Source: Candidatus Levyibacteriota bacterium
GTDB lineage: Bacteria; Patescibacteriota; Microgenomatia; Levybacterales; UBA12049
Assembly (NCBI GenBank): GCA_043823085.1
Contig: JBDRBE010000004.1
Coordinates: 197,510 to 261,509, forward strand
Direction: 5' to 3'
Length of the DNA: 64,000 bases
Below the pieces are notes generated by a model. The model saw only the letters and a program-made list of their open reading frames with translations, had not been told where the DNA came from and made no database searches. Positions 21,718 through 51,581 of the stretch are shown here, piece after piece; position 1 is the stretch's first letter, and every line of letters starts with the position of its first letter. A program made the position numbers and the translations under genes.

Positions 21718-21789
21718 GGGCCGGTAGCTCAGCGGTAGAGCAGGAGCCTTTTAAGCTCTTGGTCACAGGTTCGAATCCTGTCCGGCTCA
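21718..21789 (+). tRNA. tRNA-Lys (anticodon TTT)
   Basis: Cloverleaf folded by hand: acceptor GGGCCGG/CCGGCTC, anticodon loop CTTTTAA, T-loop GGTTCGAATCC. No CCA encoded. Confidence 0.88.
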
Positions 21790-41541: not shown

Positions 41542-43008
41542 ATGATAAAAATTCAGCATCTTTTTAAAAATTACAGGCGCGAATTTATTCTTGGGTTAAT
41601 GATTGTCATTTATATTCTTTACTTTACGACGGCAAGCTTTTTAAGGCATGACAATTTTTACACCGGCCGTTTTGATTTGGGCAATATGGATCAGGTTGCT
41701 TGGAATACGATACATGGAAGAATTTTCCAAATGACCGATCCAAACGGAACGCAAGTTATCTCAAGACTTGCTTTCCACGCCGACTTTATTTTGATTCTTC
41801 TTTCTCCATTTTATTTTATTTGGTCGAGCCCAAAAATGCTTCTTTTAATTCAGACTCTTGTCCTTTCTTTTGGCGCAATATTTGTTTTTTTACTAGCCAA
41901 AAAATATATCAAAAACAAACATTTTCCGCTTTTATTATCACTGGCTTATTTAATTAATCCTGCTGTCAACTACACCAATCTCTATGACTTTCATCCTGTA
42001 ACGCTGGCAACCACATTTTTGCTTGGCGCTTCATATTTTCTTCTTAACAAGAAATATTTTCTTTTTGTAATTTTTGCAATACTTTCCGCGATTACCAAAG
42101 AGGAAATTTGGATTATTATTGCTCTCTTTGGATTTGTGATTATTTTAAAAAATATTCGTAAATCGATTAGAAAAGTTTCAATTGGTATTATTTTATCAAT
42201 AGTATCTCTTTTTATATTTTATCTTTTGATTTGGAAAATAATTCCCGGCGTTCGCGGTACCCAACATTTTGCACTTTCCTATTATTCTGATTTTGGCGAT
42301 TCGCCTGGCTCAATAGTAAAAAATATTATTTTTTCTCCGCAAAAAACATTTGGAATAATTTTTCAAAACGGCCGTCTTATATATCTTCTTCAGCTCTTCT
42401 CGCCGGTTGGATTTTTATCTTTACTTTCGCCTTTATTTTTAATCCTTACTGCTCCTGAATTTGCAATTAATCTTTTAAGCAATAATCCCCAACTTCACCA
42501 AATTTATTATCAATACTCTTCGGGCATAACTCCATTTATTTTTGTCTCTGCAATTTTTGGCATTGCAAGAATTGAAAAGAAATTTCCAAAATTAAAAGCT
42601 AATTATTTAATTGGTTATTTTTTAATTACTGTATTTATTTCCGCATTTCTTTTTGGACCACTGCCTTTATCAAGAAACCAAAATATAGATATGTTTACCA
42701 AGCCCCAATCCGATAAAGAAATCTTGGAAAATTTTCTTTCTAAGATTCCCCAAAAATATTACGTTGCCTCAACTAATAATCTTGGCCCTCATCTCTCACA
42801 CCGTCGGGAAATTTATACTATTCCTGTTGGAATCGATAAGGCTGATATTGTTATTTTCTTATTGAATGATAAATCAGCTCTTCCGTCGCTTTCGTCCCAA
42901 ATACAAATGGCCGAGGATTTGAAAAAAAATAAAAATTATTTTGTGATTTTTCAAAAAGATTTCTTTATTGCCTTTGCAAAAAAGGGGTCAACAAGATTTT
43001 TTAGGTAG
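41542..43008 (+). CDS. Polytopic membrane protein, DUF2079-like
   Basis: At least 10 transmembrane helices; N-terminal RHDNFYTGRFDLGNMDQVAWNTIHG loop. The family assignment is from memory only. Confidence 0.4.
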   Translation: MIKIQHLFKNYRREFILGLMIVIYILYFTTASFLRHDNFYTGRFDLGNMDQVAWNTIHGRIFQMTDPNGTQVISRLAFHADFILILLSPFYFIWSSPKMLLLIQTLVLSFGAIFVFLLAKKYIKNKHFPLLLSLAYLINPAVNYTNLYDFHPVTLATTFLLGASYFLLNKKYFLFVIFAILSAITKEEIWIIIALFGFVIILKNIRKSIRKVSIGIILSIVSLFIFYLLIWKIIPGVRGTQHFALSYYSDFGDSPGSIVKNIIFSPQKTFGIIFQNGRLIYLLQLFSPVGFLSLLSPLFLILTAPEFAINLLSNNPQLHQIYYQYSSGITPFIFVSAIFGIARIEKKFPKLKANYLIGYFLITVFISAFLFGPLPLSRNQNIDMFTKPQSDKEILENFLSKIPQKYYVASTNNLGPHLSHRREIYTIPVGIDKADIVIFLLNDKSALPSLSSQIQMAEDLKKNKNYFVIFQKDFFIAFAKKGSTRFFR

Positions 43009-44305
43009 GCAGCTTCAGTTTTTGCCGATTAAAAAATAATATAACACTAAATATTAAAAGAATAATGGCGCCAAGTCTTATGGCAAATTGAGGACCAAAA
43101 TGCTCGGCAATTATTCCTATCTGAAGGCTGCCAAGAGGCGTCATTCCGATAAACATAACCGTGTAAATACTCATAATTCTTCCGCGGATGTGATCGCCAA
43201 CTGCATGCTGAATTGTTGTATTTACCATTGAAAATTGCATAATAATTCCTGCTCCGGAAAAAAACAAAAGAAAAAAAGCAAGATAAATATTTGATGTTAA
43301 AGAAAAAATCAAAACCGAGAGAGCGAATAATAAATTCCCCCCCATAATAAACATAAAATTATTTATTTTTTTTGAAAGAGAAGAAACCAAAATAACTCCC
43401 AAAAGCGCACCTATTCCGGATGTCGAGTTAAAATAACCAAGCGTATCTGCGCCTCTTTCGAAAACGTCGCTGACAATTAATGGCATTACTGTAGAGTACG
43501 ACCATCCAAAGATAGATGTTATTGCCGTAAATATAAGAAGATTTTTTATTATCACGTTGGAAAATGAATATTTTATCCCTTCTTTTATGGCTTCTATTGG
43601 ACGGGGATTGAATCTTGGCGAAACTGTTTGGACTTTAATGAAAAAAAGCGCAATAATTGCGGCAATGTAACTTGCCCCGTTAAAAATAAAAGCGCCTCCG
43701 GTTCCAAAAACGGCAATTGCAATACCCGCAAGCGCAGGACCGATAATTCTTGCCGAATTAAATATTCCCGAATTTAGCGCAATTGCAGAAGATAAATCCT
43801 CTTTACCAACCATTTCGACAGCAAATGCCTGTCTGGCCGGCATATCAATCGCTATAACAACCCCCAAAGCAAAAGCGAGAACAAAAATTTCATAAATGTT
43901 TATTATTCCAAGAATTGTCAAAAGTCCCAAAATAAAGGCTAAAATCATCTGCAAAAACTGCGTAACCATTATTATTTTCTTCTTTGAAAATCTGTCAACA
44001 ATAACTCCGCCAAAAAGGGAGAAAATGAGTATTGGAATGCTTCCAAGCGCAGAAACTAATCCAATTAAAAAAGCCGAGTGTGTAAGTTGTAAAACCAACC
44101 AAGCTTGAGCTACCATCTGAAGCCATGTTCCAACAAGTGATATAAATTGACCTGTAAAATAAAGTTTATAATTTCTATGTTTAAAAGCGGGGAATGCGGA
44201 GAAAATTTTTTTAACCCAACCTTCTTGTTCTCCTAAACTTATTTCCTGGCTTTCATCAATAATATATTTATTTTCATCATTTTCCATGTTTTTTAAGTAT
44301 AACAT
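43001..44305 (-). CDS. MFS transporter
   Basis: Twelve transmembrane helices and a GGVIVDRFSKKK MFS signature loop. Confidence 0.75.
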   Translation of the reverse strand: MLYLKNMENDENKYIIDESQEISLGEQEGWVKKIFSAFPAFKHRNYKLYFTGQFISLVGTWLQMVAQAWLVLQLTHSAFLIGLVSALGSIPILIFSLFGGVIVDRFSKKKIIMVTQFLQMILAFILGLLTILGIINIYEIFVLAFALGVVIAIDMPARQAFAVEMVGKEDLSSAIALNSGIFNSARIIGPALAGIAIAVFGTGGAFIFNGASYIAAIIALFFIKVQTVSPRFNPRPIEAIKEGIKYSFSNVIIKNLLIFTAITSIFGWSYSTVMPLIVSDVFERGADTLGYFNSTSGIGALLGVILVSSLSKKINNFMFIMGGNLLFALSVLIFSLTSNIYLAFFLLFFSGAGIIMQFSMVNTTIQHAVGDHIRGRIMSIYTVMFIGMTPLGSLQIGIIAEHFGPQFAIRLGAIILLIFSVILFFNRQKLKLPT

Positions 44306-44351
44306 GAATCTTCTACTTGAAAAATATCTTTATTAAAACTAATATTTAATT

Positions 44352-45164
44352 ATGGTACAAGTTATAAAAGCAACGGGCGAGAAAGAACCTTTTAGCGAAG
44401 AAAAGGTTTTGCGATCAATTCAACACGCAGGAATTCCAAGCCAACTACAAAATCAAGTTGTTGAATATATTAAAGCCAAACTGCACGAAAACATAAAAAC
44501 CTCAGAAATTTATCATTACATCATTGAATTTTTAGGCCAATCACCGTCTCCCTACGCAAAATCAAGATATTCTCTCAAAGAATCAATTATGGCTCTTGGT
44601 CCGACAGGATATCCTTTTGAAGATTATGTCGCCCAGATTCTTAAAACTCAAAACTATCAAACACAAGTCAGAACAATAATTTCCGGAAAATGCATCAAGC
44701 ATGAAATTGACATAATTGCCCAAAAAAAAATTATTGATATCGATGAAAAGATAATGATCGAAGCAAAGTTTCACAACGGTTTTGGGATAAGAACTGACGT
44801 TCAAGACGCCCTTTACACCAAAGCAAGATTTGATGATGTAAAAGAAAAAAATGGTTTTTCAAATGTTTGGCTTGTTACCAATACAAAAGCGACAAGCGAA
44901 ACTATTCAATATTGCGAGTGCATCGGTATGAAAATAATCGCCTGGAATTATCCGGAAAACGAATGTCTTAGAGATCTTGTTAATAAATCAAGTCTTGCTC
45001 CTATAACTTGCTTGACAACGCTTTCGGGAGCGCAAAAACAACAGCTCTTGGACAATCATATTGTTTTATGTAAAAATATTGGTCCTTCATCTCTTGATCT
45101 GCTGAATCTTCCTCCTGATAAAAAGAGCCAAGTACTTGCCGAAGCCGAATTTATCTATAAATAA
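44352..45164 (+). CDS. Fusion of an ATP-cone domain and an Mrr-type PD-(D/E)xK restriction endonuclease domain
   Basis: N-terminal VIKATGEKEPFSEEKVLRSIQHAG (ATP-cone). C-terminal YPFEDYVAQIL...HEIDIIAQ...IMIEAKFH (Mrr_cat D...ExK). Confidence 0.65.
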   Translation: MVQVIKATGEKEPFSEEKVLRSIQHAGIPSQLQNQVVEYIKAKLHENIKTSEIYHYIIEFLGQSPSPYAKSRYSLKESIMALGPTGYPFEDYVAQILKTQNYQTQVRTIISGKCIKHEIDIIAQKKIIDIDEKIMIEAKFHNGFGIRTDVQDALYTKARFDDVKEKNGFSNVWLVTNTKATSETIQYCECIGMKIIAWNYPENECLRDLVNKSSLAPITCLTTLSGAQKQQLLDNHIVLCKNIGPSSLDLLNLPPDKKSQVLAEAEFIYK

Positions 45165-46402
45165 TAATATTTATCCGCCATATAACCGTTGGGGACTGTT
45201 GTTAATTTATTGGCATAAAGTAAAAAACCATTCCTAATTGTGTGATCACCAAACCGCTGATTGATGCTATCTATCGCTGATGCTAATTTCTCATTCTTCC
45301 CTAAAGAATCAAAAAGCGAAAGAGGAATATTTTCCTTGTCTTCCAAATTTGCCGCCCACACACTTATTTGCCTAGCATATCCCAAATTATTGATATTAAA
45401 TAACTGCTGACACAAGTCAAAAATTTCTTTTCCGCTGTCAAAATAATTTTTATAAGTTTTGCGGCCGCCAATATTTATATTCCCCCGTAAAGTTATTCCA
45501 ACAGTTCTTGCTTTTTTATTGAGTCTTCGAAGTTTTATTGCAATTTCTTCGCAAAGCTCATAAACATTTTGCAAAATTATTCTTTTATCGCATTCATTTT
45601 TTGGCAGACAATAATTTCTGCCAACCGACTTAACCGATGGGGGATTCGTATAAGGAATAACCGGACTCTCGTCAATTAATAAACCCACATTTTTTAAAAA
45701 TCTTGCCTCTATTTTACCAAATTCTTCAATTAAAGTAAGTATTGACGTCTTTCTAAGCTGCATTAAATTGTAAATACCTATCTTGTTCAACCGAGATTTG
45801 ATTCTTTGCCCAATCCCGCAAACATCAGTCAATTGCGCCTGGCTATAAACATTATCAATATCATTGAATCGAATCTCTGCCATACCGTTTGGTTTATTAA
45901 TTGACGAGGCCATTTTAGCCAAAAGTTTATTATGGGAAACGCCAACAGAAACAGTAATGTATTCGCCGATTTCATTTTTGATGCGGTTTTTTATTTTTTC
46001 GATAAGCCTGCAAGTATTATCGAATAAATGAATAGTTAATGTCGCATCTATAAAGACCTCATCAATTGAAAATAATTCAACAAAAGGGGAGTAGTCTTTG
46101 CAAATATTTAAAAACTTTTTGCTTATTGCAAGATATTTAACAAAATCAGCCGGCGCAAAAACAATGTCCGGACAGATTTTTTTAGCCTCATAAGTACGGC
46201 AGCCGGTTTTAATACCCAAACGCTTTGCCTGGCAACTTGAAGCAATGATACAGGTTCTGCCGTTGGTTGCCGTAATCCCCAATGGTTTCCCTCTGAAGTT
46301 AGGATTAAACTGTTGTTCGCAGCTGGCAAAAAAAGAATCAAAATCAATGTGGAGGACAGTTCTCACAATAATATTGTACGTAAAAAATACACGAAATAAC
46401 AA
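45155..46402 (-). CDS. dinB: DNA polymerase IV (Y-family)
   Basis: HIDFDSFFASCE catalytic start, IDEVFID, and an HhH little-finger region. Confidence 0.85.
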   Translation of the reverse strand: MLFRVFFTYNIIVRTVLHIDFDSFFASCEQQFNPNFRGKPLGITATNGRTCIIASSCQAKRLGIKTGCRTYEAKKICPDIVFAPADFVKYLAISKKFLNICKDYSPFVELFSIDEVFIDATLTIHLFDNTCRLIEKIKNRIKNEIGEYITVSVGVSHNKLLAKMASSINKPNGMAEIRFNDIDNVYSQAQLTDVCGIGQRIKSRLNKIGIYNLMQLRKTSILTLIEEFGKIEARFLKNVGLLIDESPVIPYTNPPSVKSVGRNYCLPKNECDKRIILQNVYELCEEIAIKLRRLNKKARTVGITLRGNINIGGRKTYKNYFDSGKEIFDLCQQLFNINNLGYARQISVWAANLEDKENIPLSLFDSLGKNEKLASAIDSINQRFGDHTIRNGFLLYANKLTTVPNGYMADKYYYL

Positions 46403-50968: not shown

Positions 50969-51089
50969 AAAAATAATTATAGCATGATAGAGAGTCTTGG
51001 TAAGTTCAATCGTTCAGTCAGGGACGACAAAAATCAAGGCTAAATTTCTTGGGGTGGCTGACGGGATTCGAACCCGCGACGGCTAGCTC

Positions 51090-51165
51090 CACAAGCTAGT
51101 GCTCTACCACTGAGCTACAACCACCATGCATTAATTTAATTGTGTCGGGGACAGAGGACTCGAAC
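51090..51165 (-). tRNA. tRNA-His (anticodon GTG) with encoded G(-1) and 3' CCA
   Basis: Reverse complement GGTGGTTG...anticodon loop TTGTGGA...CAGCCACCCCA. The extra 5' G pairs with discriminator C73. Confidence 0.85.
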
Positions 51166-51184
51166 CTCCGACCTCACGGTCCCA

Positions 51185-51258
51185 AACCGCGCGCTCTAGC
51201 CAACTGAGCTAGTCCCCGTGTGTAAAGTCAAACTTGACTACCGAGTTCGACTCGGTGC
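51185..51258 (-). tRNA. tRNA-Pro (anticodon TGG)
   Basis: Acceptor CGGGGAC/GTCCCCG, anticodon loop TTTGGGA. Confidence 0.85.
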
Positions 51259-51295
51259 CGCGGGAGAGAGTCGAACTCTCACGCCATTACTGACA

Positions 51296-51378
51296 AAGGC
51301 TCTTAAGGCCTTCGTGTCTACCATTCCACCACCGCGGCATATTTGTATTTTATCTTAAATAAGCTTTGACTTCAATAC
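51296..51378 (-). tRNA. tRNA-Leu (anticodon TAA), class II with a long variable arm
   Basis: Acceptor GCCGCGG/CCGCGGC, anticodon stem AAGGC/GCCTT with loop CTTAAGA, 15-nt variable arm. Confidence 0.8.
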
Positions 51379-51421
51379 AATTGCAATTAGATAGCTGAAT
51401 TGATAAAATTAGATTGCTACT

Positions 51422-51493
51422 TGCGGGTGTAGTTCAGCGGTAGAACATCTGCTTTCCAAGCAGAATGTCGTCGGTTCGATCCCGATCACCCGC
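51422..51493 (+). tRNA. tRNA-Gly (anticodon TCC)
   Basis: Acceptor GCGGGTG/CACCCGC, anticodon loop TTTCCAA. Confidence 0.85.
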
Positions 51494-51501
51494 TCACAAG
51501 T

Positions 51502-51574
51502 TGCGCCTGTAGCTCAACGGACAGAGCAATTCCCTTCTAAGGAATAGGTTGTGGGTTCGATTCCCGCCAGGCGC
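51502..51574 (+). tRNA. tRNA-Arg (anticodon TCT)
   Basis: Acceptor GCGCCTG/CAGGCGC, anticodon loop CTTCTAA. Confidence 0.85.
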
Positions 51575-51581
51575 GCAAAAA

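What the first reader, a model, noticed from the sequence alone, without database searches (positions are those of the whole stretch)
44352..45164. ATP-cone domain fused to an Mrr-type PD-(D/E)xK nuclease: candidate nucleotide-sensing restriction enzyme next to dinB
The N-terminus matches the ATP-cone, the allosteric ATP/dATP-binding module of ribonucleotide reductases and NrdR. The C-terminus has the Mrr catalytic core (FEDYVAQIL, EIDIIAQ, IMIEAKFH). Inference: nuclease activity could be switched by nucleotide-pool status, for example the dNTP perturbation that accompanies phage infection or DNA damage. Its own TTGAAA / TAATAT leaderless promoter lies just upstream.
Basis: partly seen in the sequence, partly recalled or inferred. 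Interest (0 to 1): 0.6.

Follow-up and report, generated by a model that had tools for sequence, protein, structure and literature searches.

The report
ATP-cone-gated nuclease, probably not restriction
This gene really does fuse a nucleotide-sensing "ATP-cone" switch to an intact DNA/RNA-cutting domain. It belongs to a large, uncharacterised family that behaves like a resident housekeeping or stress gene, not like an anti-phage restriction enzyme.

Summary
ORF 44352-45164 encodes a 270-aa protein with an ATP-cone, an Mrr-type PD-(D/E)xK nuclease and an AF1548-like C-terminal domain. Both Pfam hits pass their gathering cut-offs. The AlphaFold model has pLDDT 96, and PDB 1Y88 matches at E=1e-30. 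Residues E90, D120, E137 and K139 are invariant in 57 diverged relatives, and the ATP-cone pocket residues are conserved. The leaderless promoter is supported comparatively: a -10 box starts exactly 12 nt before the start codon in 30 of 37 related genomes.

The "restriction enzyme next to dinB" reading is not supported. There is no modified-DNA reader domain, methylase or defence neighbour. No phage or viral-contig homologues were found, and only 2 of 72,556 plasmids carry one. The gene is syntenic and co-diverges with its flanks across Levybacteria. dinB adjacency is confined to that clade and the genes converge. In Bacteroidota, Chlamydiota and metagenomes the family sits in a conserved operon: Usp, this nuclease, a beta-CASP RNase, an AMP/thymidine-phosphorylase-like enzyme, PRPP synthetase and a P-type ATPase.

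Best reading: an adenine-nucleotide-gated endonuclease for nucleic-acid turnover or stress. The family is catalogued in databases, but I found no functional study of it.

The parts
44317..44322 (+). -35-like hexamer TTGAAA
   Evidence: Consensus scan. TTG at this position with a 16-18 nt spacer occurs in 27 of 37 clade relatives.
44340..44345 (+). -10 hexamer TAATAT. It starts 12 nt before the ATG, so the predicted transcript is leaderless (no Shine-Dalgarno sequence).
   Evidence: TAnnnT starts exactly at -12 in 30 of 37 Levybacteria-clade loci, against 0-5 at most other positions (10 at -6), and no SD-like motif is present in most of them.
44352..45164 (+). Complete ORF of 270 aa: ATP-cone + PD-(D/E)xK nuclease + AF1548-like C-terminal domain.
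   Evidence: An identical protein is on record at NCBI as 'ATP cone domain-containing protein [Candidatus Levyibacteriota]'.
44358..44570 (+). ATP-cone domain (residues 3-73). Conserved pocket residues are K6, G9, E12, F14, K18, S22, T50 and Y73.
   Evidence: Pfam 33 bits against a 25.8 cut-off. Column counts. A profile of this domain hits NrdD 8p23 and E. coli NrdR ATP-cones at E about 5e-4. Foldseek also matches RNR and NrdR cones.
44595..44621 (+). Invariant linker and first catalytic helix, motif LGPTGYPFE (residues 82-90). It ends in the acidic residue E90.
   Evidence: G83, P84, G86, F89 and E90 are conserved in 56 of 57 representatives.
44607..44945 (+). Mrr-type PD-(D/E)xK nuclease domain (residues 86-198). 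It also contains the motif (V/I)TNTK at residues 174-179.
   Evidence: Pfam Mrr_cat 29.1 bits against a 21 cut-off. PDB 1Y88 E=1.3e-30. Fold match TM 0.84.
44709..44711 (+). Catalytic Asp D120 (within H117-E118-I119-D120).
   Evidence: Invariant in 57 of 57 representatives. Equivalent to D38 of AF1548, predicted catalytic in PMC1821046.
44760..44768 (+). Catalytic E137-A-K139 (the ExK motif).
   Evidence: Invariant in 57 of 57 representatives. Equivalent to E51 and K53 of AF1548.
44691..44693 (+). Invariant Cys C114. Together with C190 (44919-44921) and the near-invariant H117 it flanks the active site. Its role is unexplained.
   Evidence: Present in 57 of 57 representatives and in AF1548.
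44919..44921 (+). Invariant Cys C190.
44958..45161 (+). AF1548-like C-terminal helical domain (residues 203-270), probably an (HhH)2-type nucleic-acid-binding module.
   Evidence: A profile of this domain hits the 1Y88 C-terminus at E=5e-13. Pfam PF22357 AF1548-like_C passes its cut-off in relatives. The isolated-domain model (pLDDT 85.7) is closest to Rad51/RadA N-terminal domains and RNAP alpha-CTD, but only at E about 1-8.
45155..46402 (-). Context only: convergent dinB (Y-family polymerase) whose 3' end overlaps the ORF by 10 nt.
   Evidence: Pfam IMS, IMS_C and IMS_HHH_1. The adjacency is conserved only in the Levybacteria clade.

Best explanation
The gene encodes a resident, vertically inherited endonuclease with three domains. 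The domains are an N-terminal ATP-cone, an Mrr-like PD-(D/E)xK catalytic domain and an AF1548-like, probably (HhH)2, C-terminal nucleic-acid-binding domain.

Shown: the architecture, a confident compact fold, an intact metal-dependent nuclease centre (E90, D120, E137-x-K139) and a conserved ATP-cone pocket. Also shown: a conserved leaderless promoter and a chromosomal, non-mobile, non-defence context.

Inferred: the ATP-cone binds ATP and/or dATP. As in ribonucleotide reductases and NrdR, the bound nucleotide would change the oligomeric state or inter-domain packing. That change would switch the nuclease on or off, while the C-terminal domain holds the substrate without sequence specificity.

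Inferred from family-wide gene context: the physiological role is nucleic-acid turnover or nucleotide salvage tied to energy or nucleotide status under stress. This could be starvation or hypoxia in Bacteroidota and Chlamydiota, and possibly nucleotide scavenging in the reduced CPR genome. It is not restriction of foreign DNA.
For: Architecture and fold.

Catalytic and pocket residues are invariant or near-invariant across 57 representatives at 34-58% identity.

The family is large and of fixed length. There are 391 clusters (at 50% identity) with E<1e-30, nearly all 265-295 aa and full-length. At least 595 species-level genomes across CPR, Bacteroidota, Chlorobiota, Balneolales and others carry it.

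Resident behaviour in the Levybacteria clade: DUF2079 is found near the target in 35 of 37 loci (directly upstream on the same strand in 27) and a convergent dinB in 31 of 37. Mean identity is 54.6%, against 58.4% for DinB and 51.5% for DUF2079, with r=0.66 to DUF2079. GC content equals the flanks.

Not mobile and not defence: no phage hit, no IMG/VR hit, 2 of 72,556 plasmids, and no PADLOC hit for the protein or 10 neighbours.

Conserved operon elsewhere. RefSeq-annotated Pontibacter and Criblamydia loci read: ATP-cone protein, MBL-fold hydrolase, thymidine-phosphorylase family protein, ribose-phosphate pyrophosphokinase. In 80 independent metagenome loci, a beta-CASP gene lies downstream on the same strand in 35 of 47 loci with enough sequence, and the TP-family and PRS genes in 25 of 47. 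Usp is present in 33 of 80, typically ending 15-30 bp upstream, and a P-type ATPase in 44 of 80.

Partner identities: a beta-CASP ribonuclease related to aCPSF1/Cas14, an archaeal-type phosphorylase close to AMP phosphorylase, and PRPP synthetase. The MBL/PRS/TP trio is microoxia-induced in Bradyrhizobium (PMC6515984). A metal-dependent RNase, a cation ATPase and USPs are in the low-oxygen lxa locus of Burkholderia (PMC3721108).
Against: There is no biochemical evidence for any member. Nucleotide binding, the substrate (DNA or RNA) and the direction of regulation are all unknown.

The canonical Arg of the KR(D/N)G lid is Ala/Ser in this family. E. coli NrdR, which binds ATP and dATP, also lacks it.

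The operon partners are absent from this 64-kb window. In Levybacteria the context (DUF2079, dinB, an MFS transporter) says little about function. Transferring a role from relatives at 36-42% identity is therefore an extrapolation.

The nuclease domain's closest characterised structural relatives are restriction or defence nucleases: MspJI, AspBHI, Can2 and Card1. The phage and plasmid collections under-represent CPR and Bacteroidota, which weakens the negative result.
Confidence: 0.55

Rival explanations
1. Nucleotide-sensing restriction or abortive-infection nuclease. The ATP-cone would detect the dNTP or ATP disturbance caused by phage infection and unleash a non-specific Mrr-type nuclease on phage or host DNA.
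For: The protein matches Mrr_cat, and its fold resembles MspJI and AspBHI (type IV restriction) and the ligand-activated defence nucleases Can2, Card1 and Cdn1. The sensor-plus-nuclease logic is typical of defence effectors (established knowledge).
Against: There is no modified-DNA reader domain. PADLOC gives only sub-threshold hits at E 1e-3 to 5e-3. None of 10 neighbours is defence-related. The gene sits at a fixed syntenic locus in 35 of 37 clade genomes and diverges like its flanks. It is absent from phages and IMG/VR and nearly absent from plasmids. In other phyla it lies in metabolic/stress operons rather than defence islands.
Confidence: 0.15
2. Structure-specific DNA-repair or damage-tolerance endonuclease working with DinB. 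A PD-(D/E)xK nuclease with an (HhH)2-like tail would resemble the XPF/Mus81/Hef layout. It would process stalled forks or flaps, gated by dNTP status.
For: dinB adjacency is conserved in 31 of 37 Levybacteria-clade loci, with a conserved 3'-3' overlap. The C-terminal domain is nearest to Rad51/RadA N-terminal (HhH)2 and RNAP alpha-CTD folds. The NucS repair endonuclease is among the fold matches. One source names a relative 'Holliday junction resolvase-like'.
Against: The two genes converge and so are not co-transcribed. Only 1 of 46 more distant loci has any DinB-like match within 10 kb, a weak one (29% identity) about 4 kb upstream on the same strand. This makes the link clade synteny rather than a family-wide association. 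The HhH assignment is statistically weak (E about 1-8). Partners elsewhere are an RNase and nucleotide-salvage enzymes.
Confidence: 0.15
3. Non-catalytic, nucleotide-responsive DNA-binding regulator, analogous to NrdR. The restriction-endonuclease fold and the C-terminal domain would serve only to bind DNA.
For: The ATP-cone of NrdR controls DNA binding through oligomerisation (bioRxiv 10.1101/2025.03.28.645925). The gene often sits next to ArsR or CsoR regulators and transporter genes.
Against: All four catalytic residues are invariant across the whole family, which is not expected of an inactivated nuclease fold. Those operons already encode dedicated regulators.
Confidence: 0.05

Closest known systems
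AF1548 of Archaeoglobus fulgidus (PDB 1Y88; structural-genomics protein of unknown function)
   Same: It has the same nuclease domain and the same C-terminal domain. Sequence E=1.3e-30 over query residues 92-266. Foldseek E=7.6e-16, TM 0.84, rmsd 2.7 A. The D/E/K triad (D38, E51, K53, predicted in PMC1821046) and both Cys are the same.
   Different: AF1548 has no ATP-cone (199 aa). It is archaeal and has no functional data.
Mrr / type IV and MspJI-, AspBHI-type modification-dependent restriction endonucleases (Pfam Mrr_cat)
   Same: They share the catalytic PD-(D/E)xK fold and motifs. Pfam Mrr_cat is above its cut-off, and Foldseek gives E about 5e-4 to 1.5e-3.
   Different: Those enzymes carry an N-terminal modified-DNA reader (winged-helix or SRA-like) and are patchily distributed defence genes. 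Here the N-terminus is an ATP-cone, and the gene is syntenic and resident.
NrdR and the ATP-cones of ribonucleotide reductases (NrdA, NrdB, NrdD)
   Same: They share the sensor domain and its conserved pocket residues. The likely mode of action is the same: nucleotide-dependent oligomerisation or allostery.
   Different: The effector here is a nuclease. It is not a Zn-ribbon DNA binder or a reductase, and there is no link to nrd genes in this window.
CARF-nuclease effectors Can2 / Card1 / Cdn1 (type III CRISPR ancillary nucleases)
   Same: They share the design logic of an N-terminal nucleotide-ligand sensor fused to a PD-(D/E)xK nuclease. Fold matches are at E about 1e-3.
   Different: Their sensor is CARF binding cyclic oligoadenylate, not an ATP-cone. 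There is no CRISPR association here.
XPF / Mus81 / Hef structure-specific nucleases
   Same: They share the layout of a restriction-endonuclease-fold nuclease followed by a helix-hairpin-helix type tail. This comparison rests on my own knowledge plus the weak fold matches.
   Different: They belong to a different nuclease subfamily (ERCC4). There is no significant sequence or fold match, and no ATP-cone.

Membership tests
ATP-cone (Pfam PF03477) | Profile match at or above the curated gathering score | tested here: met
   33.0 bits against a 25.8 cut-off, residues 3-73. A profile of the family's N-terminus hits NrdD and NrdR ATP-cones at E about 5e-4.
ATP-cone (Pfam PF03477) | Fold: a beta-hairpin lid over a four-helix cone | tested here: met
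   The model has strands 3-5 and 11-13 and helices 16-25, 30-43, 50-63 and 69-80, with pLDDT above 90. Foldseek probability is 1.0 to RNR R1, NrdR and NrdB cones, rmsd 2.4 A over 82-86 columns.
ATP-cone (Pfam PF03477) | Conserved nucleotide-contacting residues (the Lys and Arg of the KR(D/N)G lid, the Glu, and the second Lys) | tested here: inconclusive
   K6, G9 and K18 are near-invariant; E12 (42/57) and F14 (50/57) are well conserved. The Arg position is Ala/Ser. E. coli NrdR (VVKSND) also lacks it and still binds ATP and dATP.
ATP-cone (Pfam PF03477) | Actual binding of ATP or dATP | not testable with these tools
   Needs ITC, DSF or co-crystallisation.
PD-(D/E)xK nuclease, Mrr_cat (PF04471) | Profile match at or above the gathering score | tested here: met
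   29.1 bits against a 21 cut-off, residues 86-198.
PD-(D/E)xK nuclease, Mrr_cat (PF04471) | Catalytic E ... D ... (D/E)xK residues present and conserved | tested here: met
   D120, E137 and K139 are invariant in 57 of 57 representatives and E90 in 56 of 57 (the 57th lacks that region).
PD-(D/E)xK nuclease, Mrr_cat (PF04471) | Nuclease activity | not testable with these tools
   No member has been assayed. The literature searches found nothing.
Type IV (Mrr-like) restriction enzyme / anti-phage defence gene | A domain that recognises modified DNA (Mrr_N winged helix, SRA and similar) | tested here: not met
   Only ATP-cone, Mrr_cat and the AF1548-like C-terminus are found.
Type IV (Mrr-like) restriction enzyme / anti-phage defence gene | Match to a known defence-system model, or a defence-island neighbourhood | tested here: not met
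   PADLOC's best hit is E=1.1e-3 for the protein and there are none for 10 neighbours. The neighbours are MscS, HD, DUF2079, MFS, DinB, an acyltransferase, a deacetylase, RibH and RibE.
Type IV (Mrr-like) restriction enzyme / anti-phage defence gene | Patchy, mobile distribution | tested here: not met
   Fixed synteny in 35 of 37 clade genomes and co-divergence with the flanks. 0 phage records, 0 IMG/VR contigs, 2 of 72,556 plasmids.
AF1548-like family (1Y88; Pfam PF22357 C-terminal domain) | Significant similarity over both the nuclease and the C-terminal domain | tested here: met
   E=1.3e-30 over residues 92-266. The C-terminal profile hits 1Y88 residues 128-196 at E=5e-13. PF22357 passes its cut-off in relatives P0020 and P0032. 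The query itself was not reported at E<=1.
(HhH)2 DNA-binding domains | Significant fold or profile match to a known (HhH)2 domain | tested here: inconclusive
   The best non-AF1548 matches are Rad51/RadA N-terminal domains (rmsd 1.9-2.4 A over 54-59 columns) and RNAP alpha-CTD, but E=1-8.
Stress/salvage operon (Usp, ATP-cone nuclease, beta-CASP, TP family, PRS, P-type ATPase) | Partner genes adjacent to the nuclease | tested here: not met
   The partners are present in relatives. None of them is in this 64-kb window.

The most novel reading that the evidence does not exclude
The family may be the first example of an ATP-cone controlling a nuclease. It would be an energy- or dNTP-status-gated endonuclease that opens nucleic acid (RNA and/or DNA) for a dedicated catabolic and salvage route. 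In that route a beta-CASP exonuclease would produce NMPs, an AMP-phosphorylase-like enzyme would produce ribose-1,5-bisphosphate, and PRPP synthetase would complete the pathway. The route would be switched on in hypoxia or starvation islands of Bacteroidota and Chlamydiota. In nucleotide-auxotrophic CPR bacteria the gene would be retained as a stand-alone, constitutively transcribed (leaderless) nucleotide-scavenging nuclease. The two invariant cysteines beside the active site could add redox or metal control.
Probability: 0.3. Interest if true: 0.75.

Novelty: new variant of a known kind. Interest (0 to 1): 0.55.

Why it matters
ATP-cones are known experimentally only as allosteric switches of ribonucleotide reductases and of the repressor NrdR. 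A widespread family in which the same switch is wired to an intact nuclease would extend that regulatory principle to nucleic-acid degradation. The family spans at least 595 species-level genomes and 391 deep clusters.

The conserved operon is itself an undescribed module in the open literature I could search. It combines this nuclease with a beta-CASP RNase, an AMP-phosphorylase-like enzyme, PRPP synthetase, Usp and a P-type ATPase. It overlaps gene sets that are experimentally induced by low oxygen. That gives a concrete, testable hypothesis for how dormant or starving bacteria, and nucleotide-dependent CPR bacteria, recycle nucleic acids.

If the family instead proved to be a defence nuclease, it would be a new sensor type for immunity. 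Either outcome can be reached with simple biochemistry, because the protein is small and is predicted with very high confidence.

Tried and rejected
Searches that failed or were unavailable:
1. The search for related loci with the 57- and 12-sequence alignments failed because no stretch was conserved enough. A 7-sequence alignment worked.
3. Literature searches for ATP-cone with restriction endonuclease, nuclease, thymidine phosphorylase, and 'ATP cone domain-containing protein' found no description of this fusion. A search for AF1548 returned only the GOS paper, which predicts a restriction endonuclease from sequence.

Ideas rejected:
4. A functional link to dinB: the adjacency is clade-restricted and the genes converge.
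5. A defence island.
6. Horizontal acquisition: there is no GC anomaly and divergence correlates with the flanks.

Inconclusive or uninformative:
7. The single-site promoter scan is not above background on its own. Only the comparative analysis gave a signal.
8. The fold search with the C-terminal domain alone gave only non-significant (HhH)2-like matches.
9. tblastn for the operon partners in the window found none.
10. The minus-strand ORF 44583..44804 (73 aa, TTG start) inside the gene was treated as spurious, because it overlaps a strongly conserved coding region.
Full report
**Observation**

The window contains an ORF at 44352..45164 (+) of 270 aa. Pfam assigns two domains, both above the curated cut-offs:
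- ATP-cone, residues 3-73, 33.0 bits against a gathering score of 25.8.
- Mrr_cat, residues 86-198, 29.1 bits against 21.

NCBIfam adds only a sub-threshold match of residues 1-50 to the ATP-cone part of NrdR. An identical protein is on record at NCBI as 'ATP cone domain-containing protein [Candidatus Levyibacteriota]' on a 431-kb contig. The organism is therefore a CPR bacterium (Patescibacteria, Levybacteria). The region has 31-39% G+C and the gene does not deviate from it.

**Structure**

The sequence matches one solved structure, AF1548 of Archaeoglobus fulgidus (1Y88, function unknown). The match has E=1.3e-30 over residues 92-266, covering the nuclease and a C-terminal helical domain but not the ATP-cone.

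An AlphaFold2 model built on 57 diverged relatives is very confident (pLDDT 96.2, pTM 0.91), which implies a compact multi-domain body. Foldseek against the PDB gives three groups of matches:
- 1Y88 first (E=7.6e-16, TM 0.84).
- Mrr-like catalytic domains of MspJI and AspBHI, the CARF-nucleases Can2, Card1 and Cdn1, and NucS.
- For the N-terminus, ATP-cones of class I RNR, NrdB and NrdR (82-86 columns at 2.4 A).

A profile of the family's N-terminal 85 residues finds the ATP-cones of NrdD (8p23) and E. coli NrdR at E about 5e-4. In that alignment K6, E12, F14 and K18 line up with the nucleotide-binding segment VVKSNDVREPFNEEKL of NrdR.

The family has Ala/Ser where many cones have the Arg of KR(D/N)G. 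E. coli NrdR lacks that Arg too, so the difference does not disqualify the domain.

The C-terminal domain corresponds to Pfam PF22357 'AF1548-like_C', which passes its cut-off in relatives. A profile of it hits the 1Y88 C-terminus at E=5e-13. Modelled alone (pLDDT 85.7), its nearest non-AF1548 folds are Rad51/RadA N-terminal (HhH)2 domains and the RNA polymerase alpha-CTD. Those matches have E=1-8, so I call it (HhH)2-like only tentatively.

**Conservation**

A HMMER scan of 1.84 billion cluster representatives finds 1026 relatives at E<=1e-3 and 391 at E<=1e-30. Almost all of the best 150 are 265-295 aa and align end to end. In 57 representatives at 34-58% identity, these columns are invariant: G112, C114, E118, D120, E137, K139, R159, D162, N177, C190, W198, P201 and P217. 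E90, H117, K6, G9, K18, S22 and Y73 are near-invariant.

The PD-(D/E)xK centre (E90, D120, E137-x-K139) is thus intact throughout. It matches the residues predicted for AF1548 (D38, E51, K53) in PMC1821046.

Two invariant cysteines (C114, C190) and H117 sit next to the catalytic Asp. They remain unexplained.

**Promoter**

TTGAAA (44317-44322), a 17-nt spacer and TAATAT (44340-44345) precede the ATG by 6 nt, and there is no Shine-Dalgarno sequence. On its own this is not significant in such AT-rich DNA: 11 promoter-like sites were found against 6.3+-2.5 expected.

Conservation gives the signal. In 30 of 37 Levybacteria-clade loci a TAnnnT hexamer starts exactly at -12 from the start codon, against 0-5 at most other positions and at most 10 (at -6). 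In 26 of 37 it is also paired with TTG at -35. A leaderless transcript is therefore well supported.

This is not special to this gene. In this window 7 of 53 ORFs show the same -12 box and only 10 of 53 have an SD-like motif.

**Context in the window and its clade**

The neighbours are MscS, an HD protein, DUF2079, an MFS transporter (divergent), then the target. Downstream come a convergent DinB whose 3' end overlaps the target by 10 nt, a FabD-like acyltransferase, a polysaccharide deacetylase, RibH and RibE. None of 10 flanking proteins matches a PADLOC defence model. The target's own best PADLOC hits are E=1e-3 and 5e-3.

Across 37 species-level relatives at 48% identity or more, DUF2079 is found near the target in 35 (directly upstream on the same strand in 27). 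A convergent DinB follows in 31. The target's mean identity (54.6%) is like that of DinB (58.4%) and DUF2079 (51.5%), and correlates with DUF2079 (r=0.66, p=4e-4). This is the behaviour of a vertically inherited resident gene.

Among the 46 more distant loci (below 48% identity), only one (L041) has any DinB-like match within 10 kb. It is weak (29% identity), lies about 4 kb upstream and is on the same strand. So 'next to dinB' is clade synteny. Because the genes converge, it is not an operon.

**Mobility**

- tblastn finds no relative in 50,697 phage records.
- A pattern scan with tblastn confirmation finds none in 2.9 million IMG/VR contigs.
- Only 2 of 72,556 plasmids carry one: Pontibacter actiniarum and Criblamydia sequanensis.

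These collections under-represent CPR bacteria, so the negative result is suggestive rather than decisive.

**Context in the rest of the family**

The two plasmid loci, annotated by RefSeq, show the same co-directional, tightly spaced set:
1. ATP cone domain-containing protein.
2. MBL-fold metallo-hydrolase.
3. Thymidine phosphorylase family protein.
4. Ribose-phosphate pyrophosphokinase.

In Criblamydia this set is flanked by a P-type ATPase, phosphoketolase, glycogen phosphorylase and acetate kinase.

In the 46 distant GTDB loci, counts within 6 kb are:

| Neighbour | Loci (of 46) |
|---|---|
| P-type ATPase (P1B with HMBD, or P2 Ca-type) | 18 (8 directly adjacent on the same strand) |
| beta-CASP hydrolase | 10 |
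| TP-family protein | 7 |
| Usp | 7 |
| ArsR repressor, directly upstream | 4 |
| CsoR repressor | 3 (directly upstream in 1) |

A Parcubacteria subgroup instead shows MnmA, then the target, then a PDDEXK_1 protein (10 loci).

An independent scan of metagenome contigs, seeded with the Criblamydia/Bacteroidota subgroup, gave 80 loci:
- Of the 47 loci with at least 4.5 kb downstream, 35 have the beta-CASP gene downstream on the same strand.
- Of those 47, 25 also have the TP-family and PRS genes.
- Usp is present in 33 of 80, in most cases ending 15-30 bp upstream on the same strand.
- A P-type ATPase is present in 44 of 80.

NCBIfam identifies the partners as follows:
- A beta-CASP ribonuclease related to aCPSF1/Cas14, below the equivalog cut-offs.
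- An archaeal-type 'putative thymidine phosphorylase'. It is above the cut-off for TIGR02645 and just below that for AMP phosphorylase.
- A PRPP synthetase subfamily.

The MBL/PRS/TP trio (bll3115-3117) is induced under microoxia in Bradyrhizobium diazoefficiens (PMC6515984). The low-oxygen-activated lxa locus of Burkholderia cenocepacia contains a strongly induced metal-dependent RNase, a cation ATPase and several USPs (PMC3721108). None of these partners lies in the present window.

**Interpretation**

Shown:
- A three-domain protein with an intact nuclease centre and a conserved ATP-cone.
- Transcription from a conserved leaderless promoter.
- A gene that is resident and vertically inherited in Levybacteria.
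- A family embedded elsewhere in an operon of RNA-degrading and nucleotide/pentose-salvage enzymes, within stress-type gene sets.

Inferred:
- The cone binds ATP and/or dATP. As in RNR and NrdR, it would change oligomeric state or domain packing to gate cleavage.
- The C-terminal domain binds nucleic acid non-specifically.
- The biological role is nucleic-acid turnover or salvage coupled to energy or nucleotide status, not restriction.

I put 0.55 on this reading. The rivals are a defence nuclease (0.15), a DinB-linked repair nuclease (0.15) and a non-catalytic regulator (0.05). The remainder is unassigned.

**Comparison with the known, and novelty**

The protein is a member of the ATP-cone and Mrr_cat/PD-(D/E)xK superfamilies and of the AF1548-like family. 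All tested criteria for those are met, except direct activity and binding, which cannot be tested here.

It should not be filed as a type IV restriction enzyme. The tested defining features are not met: a modified-DNA reader, a defence context and a mobile, patchy distribution.

It works like the ligand-gated nucleases Can2 and Card1 in design, but it is not a member of that family.

The domain architecture is catalogued in Pfam and in NCBI naming, and a cone-less homologue has a crystal structure. I found no functional or comparative description of the fusion or of its operon in the searchable literature. I therefore rate it a new variant of a known kind, of moderate interest (0.55). The gene in this window is an ordinary member of that family.

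Noticed in passing
window 45155-45164; L001 8802-8816; L005 2392-2413; L006 8802-8816: The target and the convergent dinB overlap at their 3' ends by 10-22 nt in several species, and no intrinsic terminator lies between them. This may reflect genome compaction, or convergent-transcription interference between the two genes.
   Followed up: partly
window 44691-44693 (C114), 44700-44702 (H117), 44919-44921 (C190): Two invariant cysteines and a near-invariant histidine flank the catalytic Asp in all 57 representatives and in AF1548. They could form a metal or redox site. In other phyla the family neighbours metal and redox genes (CsoR, ArsR, P1B ATPase, VIT1, DUF3347).
   Followed up: partly
window 43001-44305 (-) and 44296-44323 (-): The MFS_3 transporter gene lies between DUF2079 and the target in only 5 of the Levybacteria-clade loci, so it looks like a lineage-specific insertion. 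A minus-strand promoter-like site, TTTTCA-16-(TG)TATACT, would place a leaderless start at the seventh codon (Met, 44287) of the listed ORF.
   Followed up: partly
window-wide (53 ORFs of at least 120 aa): Only 10 of 53 ORFs have an SD-like motif, and 7 of 53 have a TAnnnT box starting exactly 12 nt upstream of the start codon. This suggests frequent leaderless mRNAs in this Levybacteria genome.
   Followed up: partly
window 51050-51576: A cluster of five tRNA genes: His, Pro and Leu on the minus strand, Gly and Arg on the plus strand. It explains a local G+C rise to 45%. Four further tRNAs lie at 21718, 28350, 39046 and 39215.
   Followed up: yes
L007-L010, L015, L016, L018, L029, L031-L033, L036 (GTDB genome records): Many TPA_asm MAG records titled 'uncultured Gammaproteobacteria' carry proteins 48-63% identical to the target, and almost all of them the Levybacteria-type DUF2079/target/dinB synteny. 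The record taxonomy is probably wrong.
   Followed up: no
L057-L059, L061, L076, L081-L084, L086: In a Parcubacteria subgroup (Kaiserbacteria, Wolfebacteria and relatives) the family member lies between mnmA (tRNA 2-thiouridylase) and a PDDEXK_1 (Cas4/RecB-like) nuclease gene. This is a third, distinct conserved context.
   Followed up: partly
L088 1137-13886 (Criblamydia sequanensis plasmid): One co-directional block holds a P-type ATPase, phosphoketolase, glycogen phosphorylase, the ATP-cone nuclease, a beta-CASP hydrolase, a TP-family protein, PRPP synthetase and acetate kinase. It reads like a polymer-mobilisation and substrate-level-phosphorylation module.
   Followed up: partly
window 44707-44734 (+): The best-scoring sigma-70-like site in the region (TTGACA-16-AATTAT, 10 of 12 matches) lies inside the coding sequence, across the catalytic Asp codon. 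It is most likely a chance match in AT-rich DNA.
   Followed up: no
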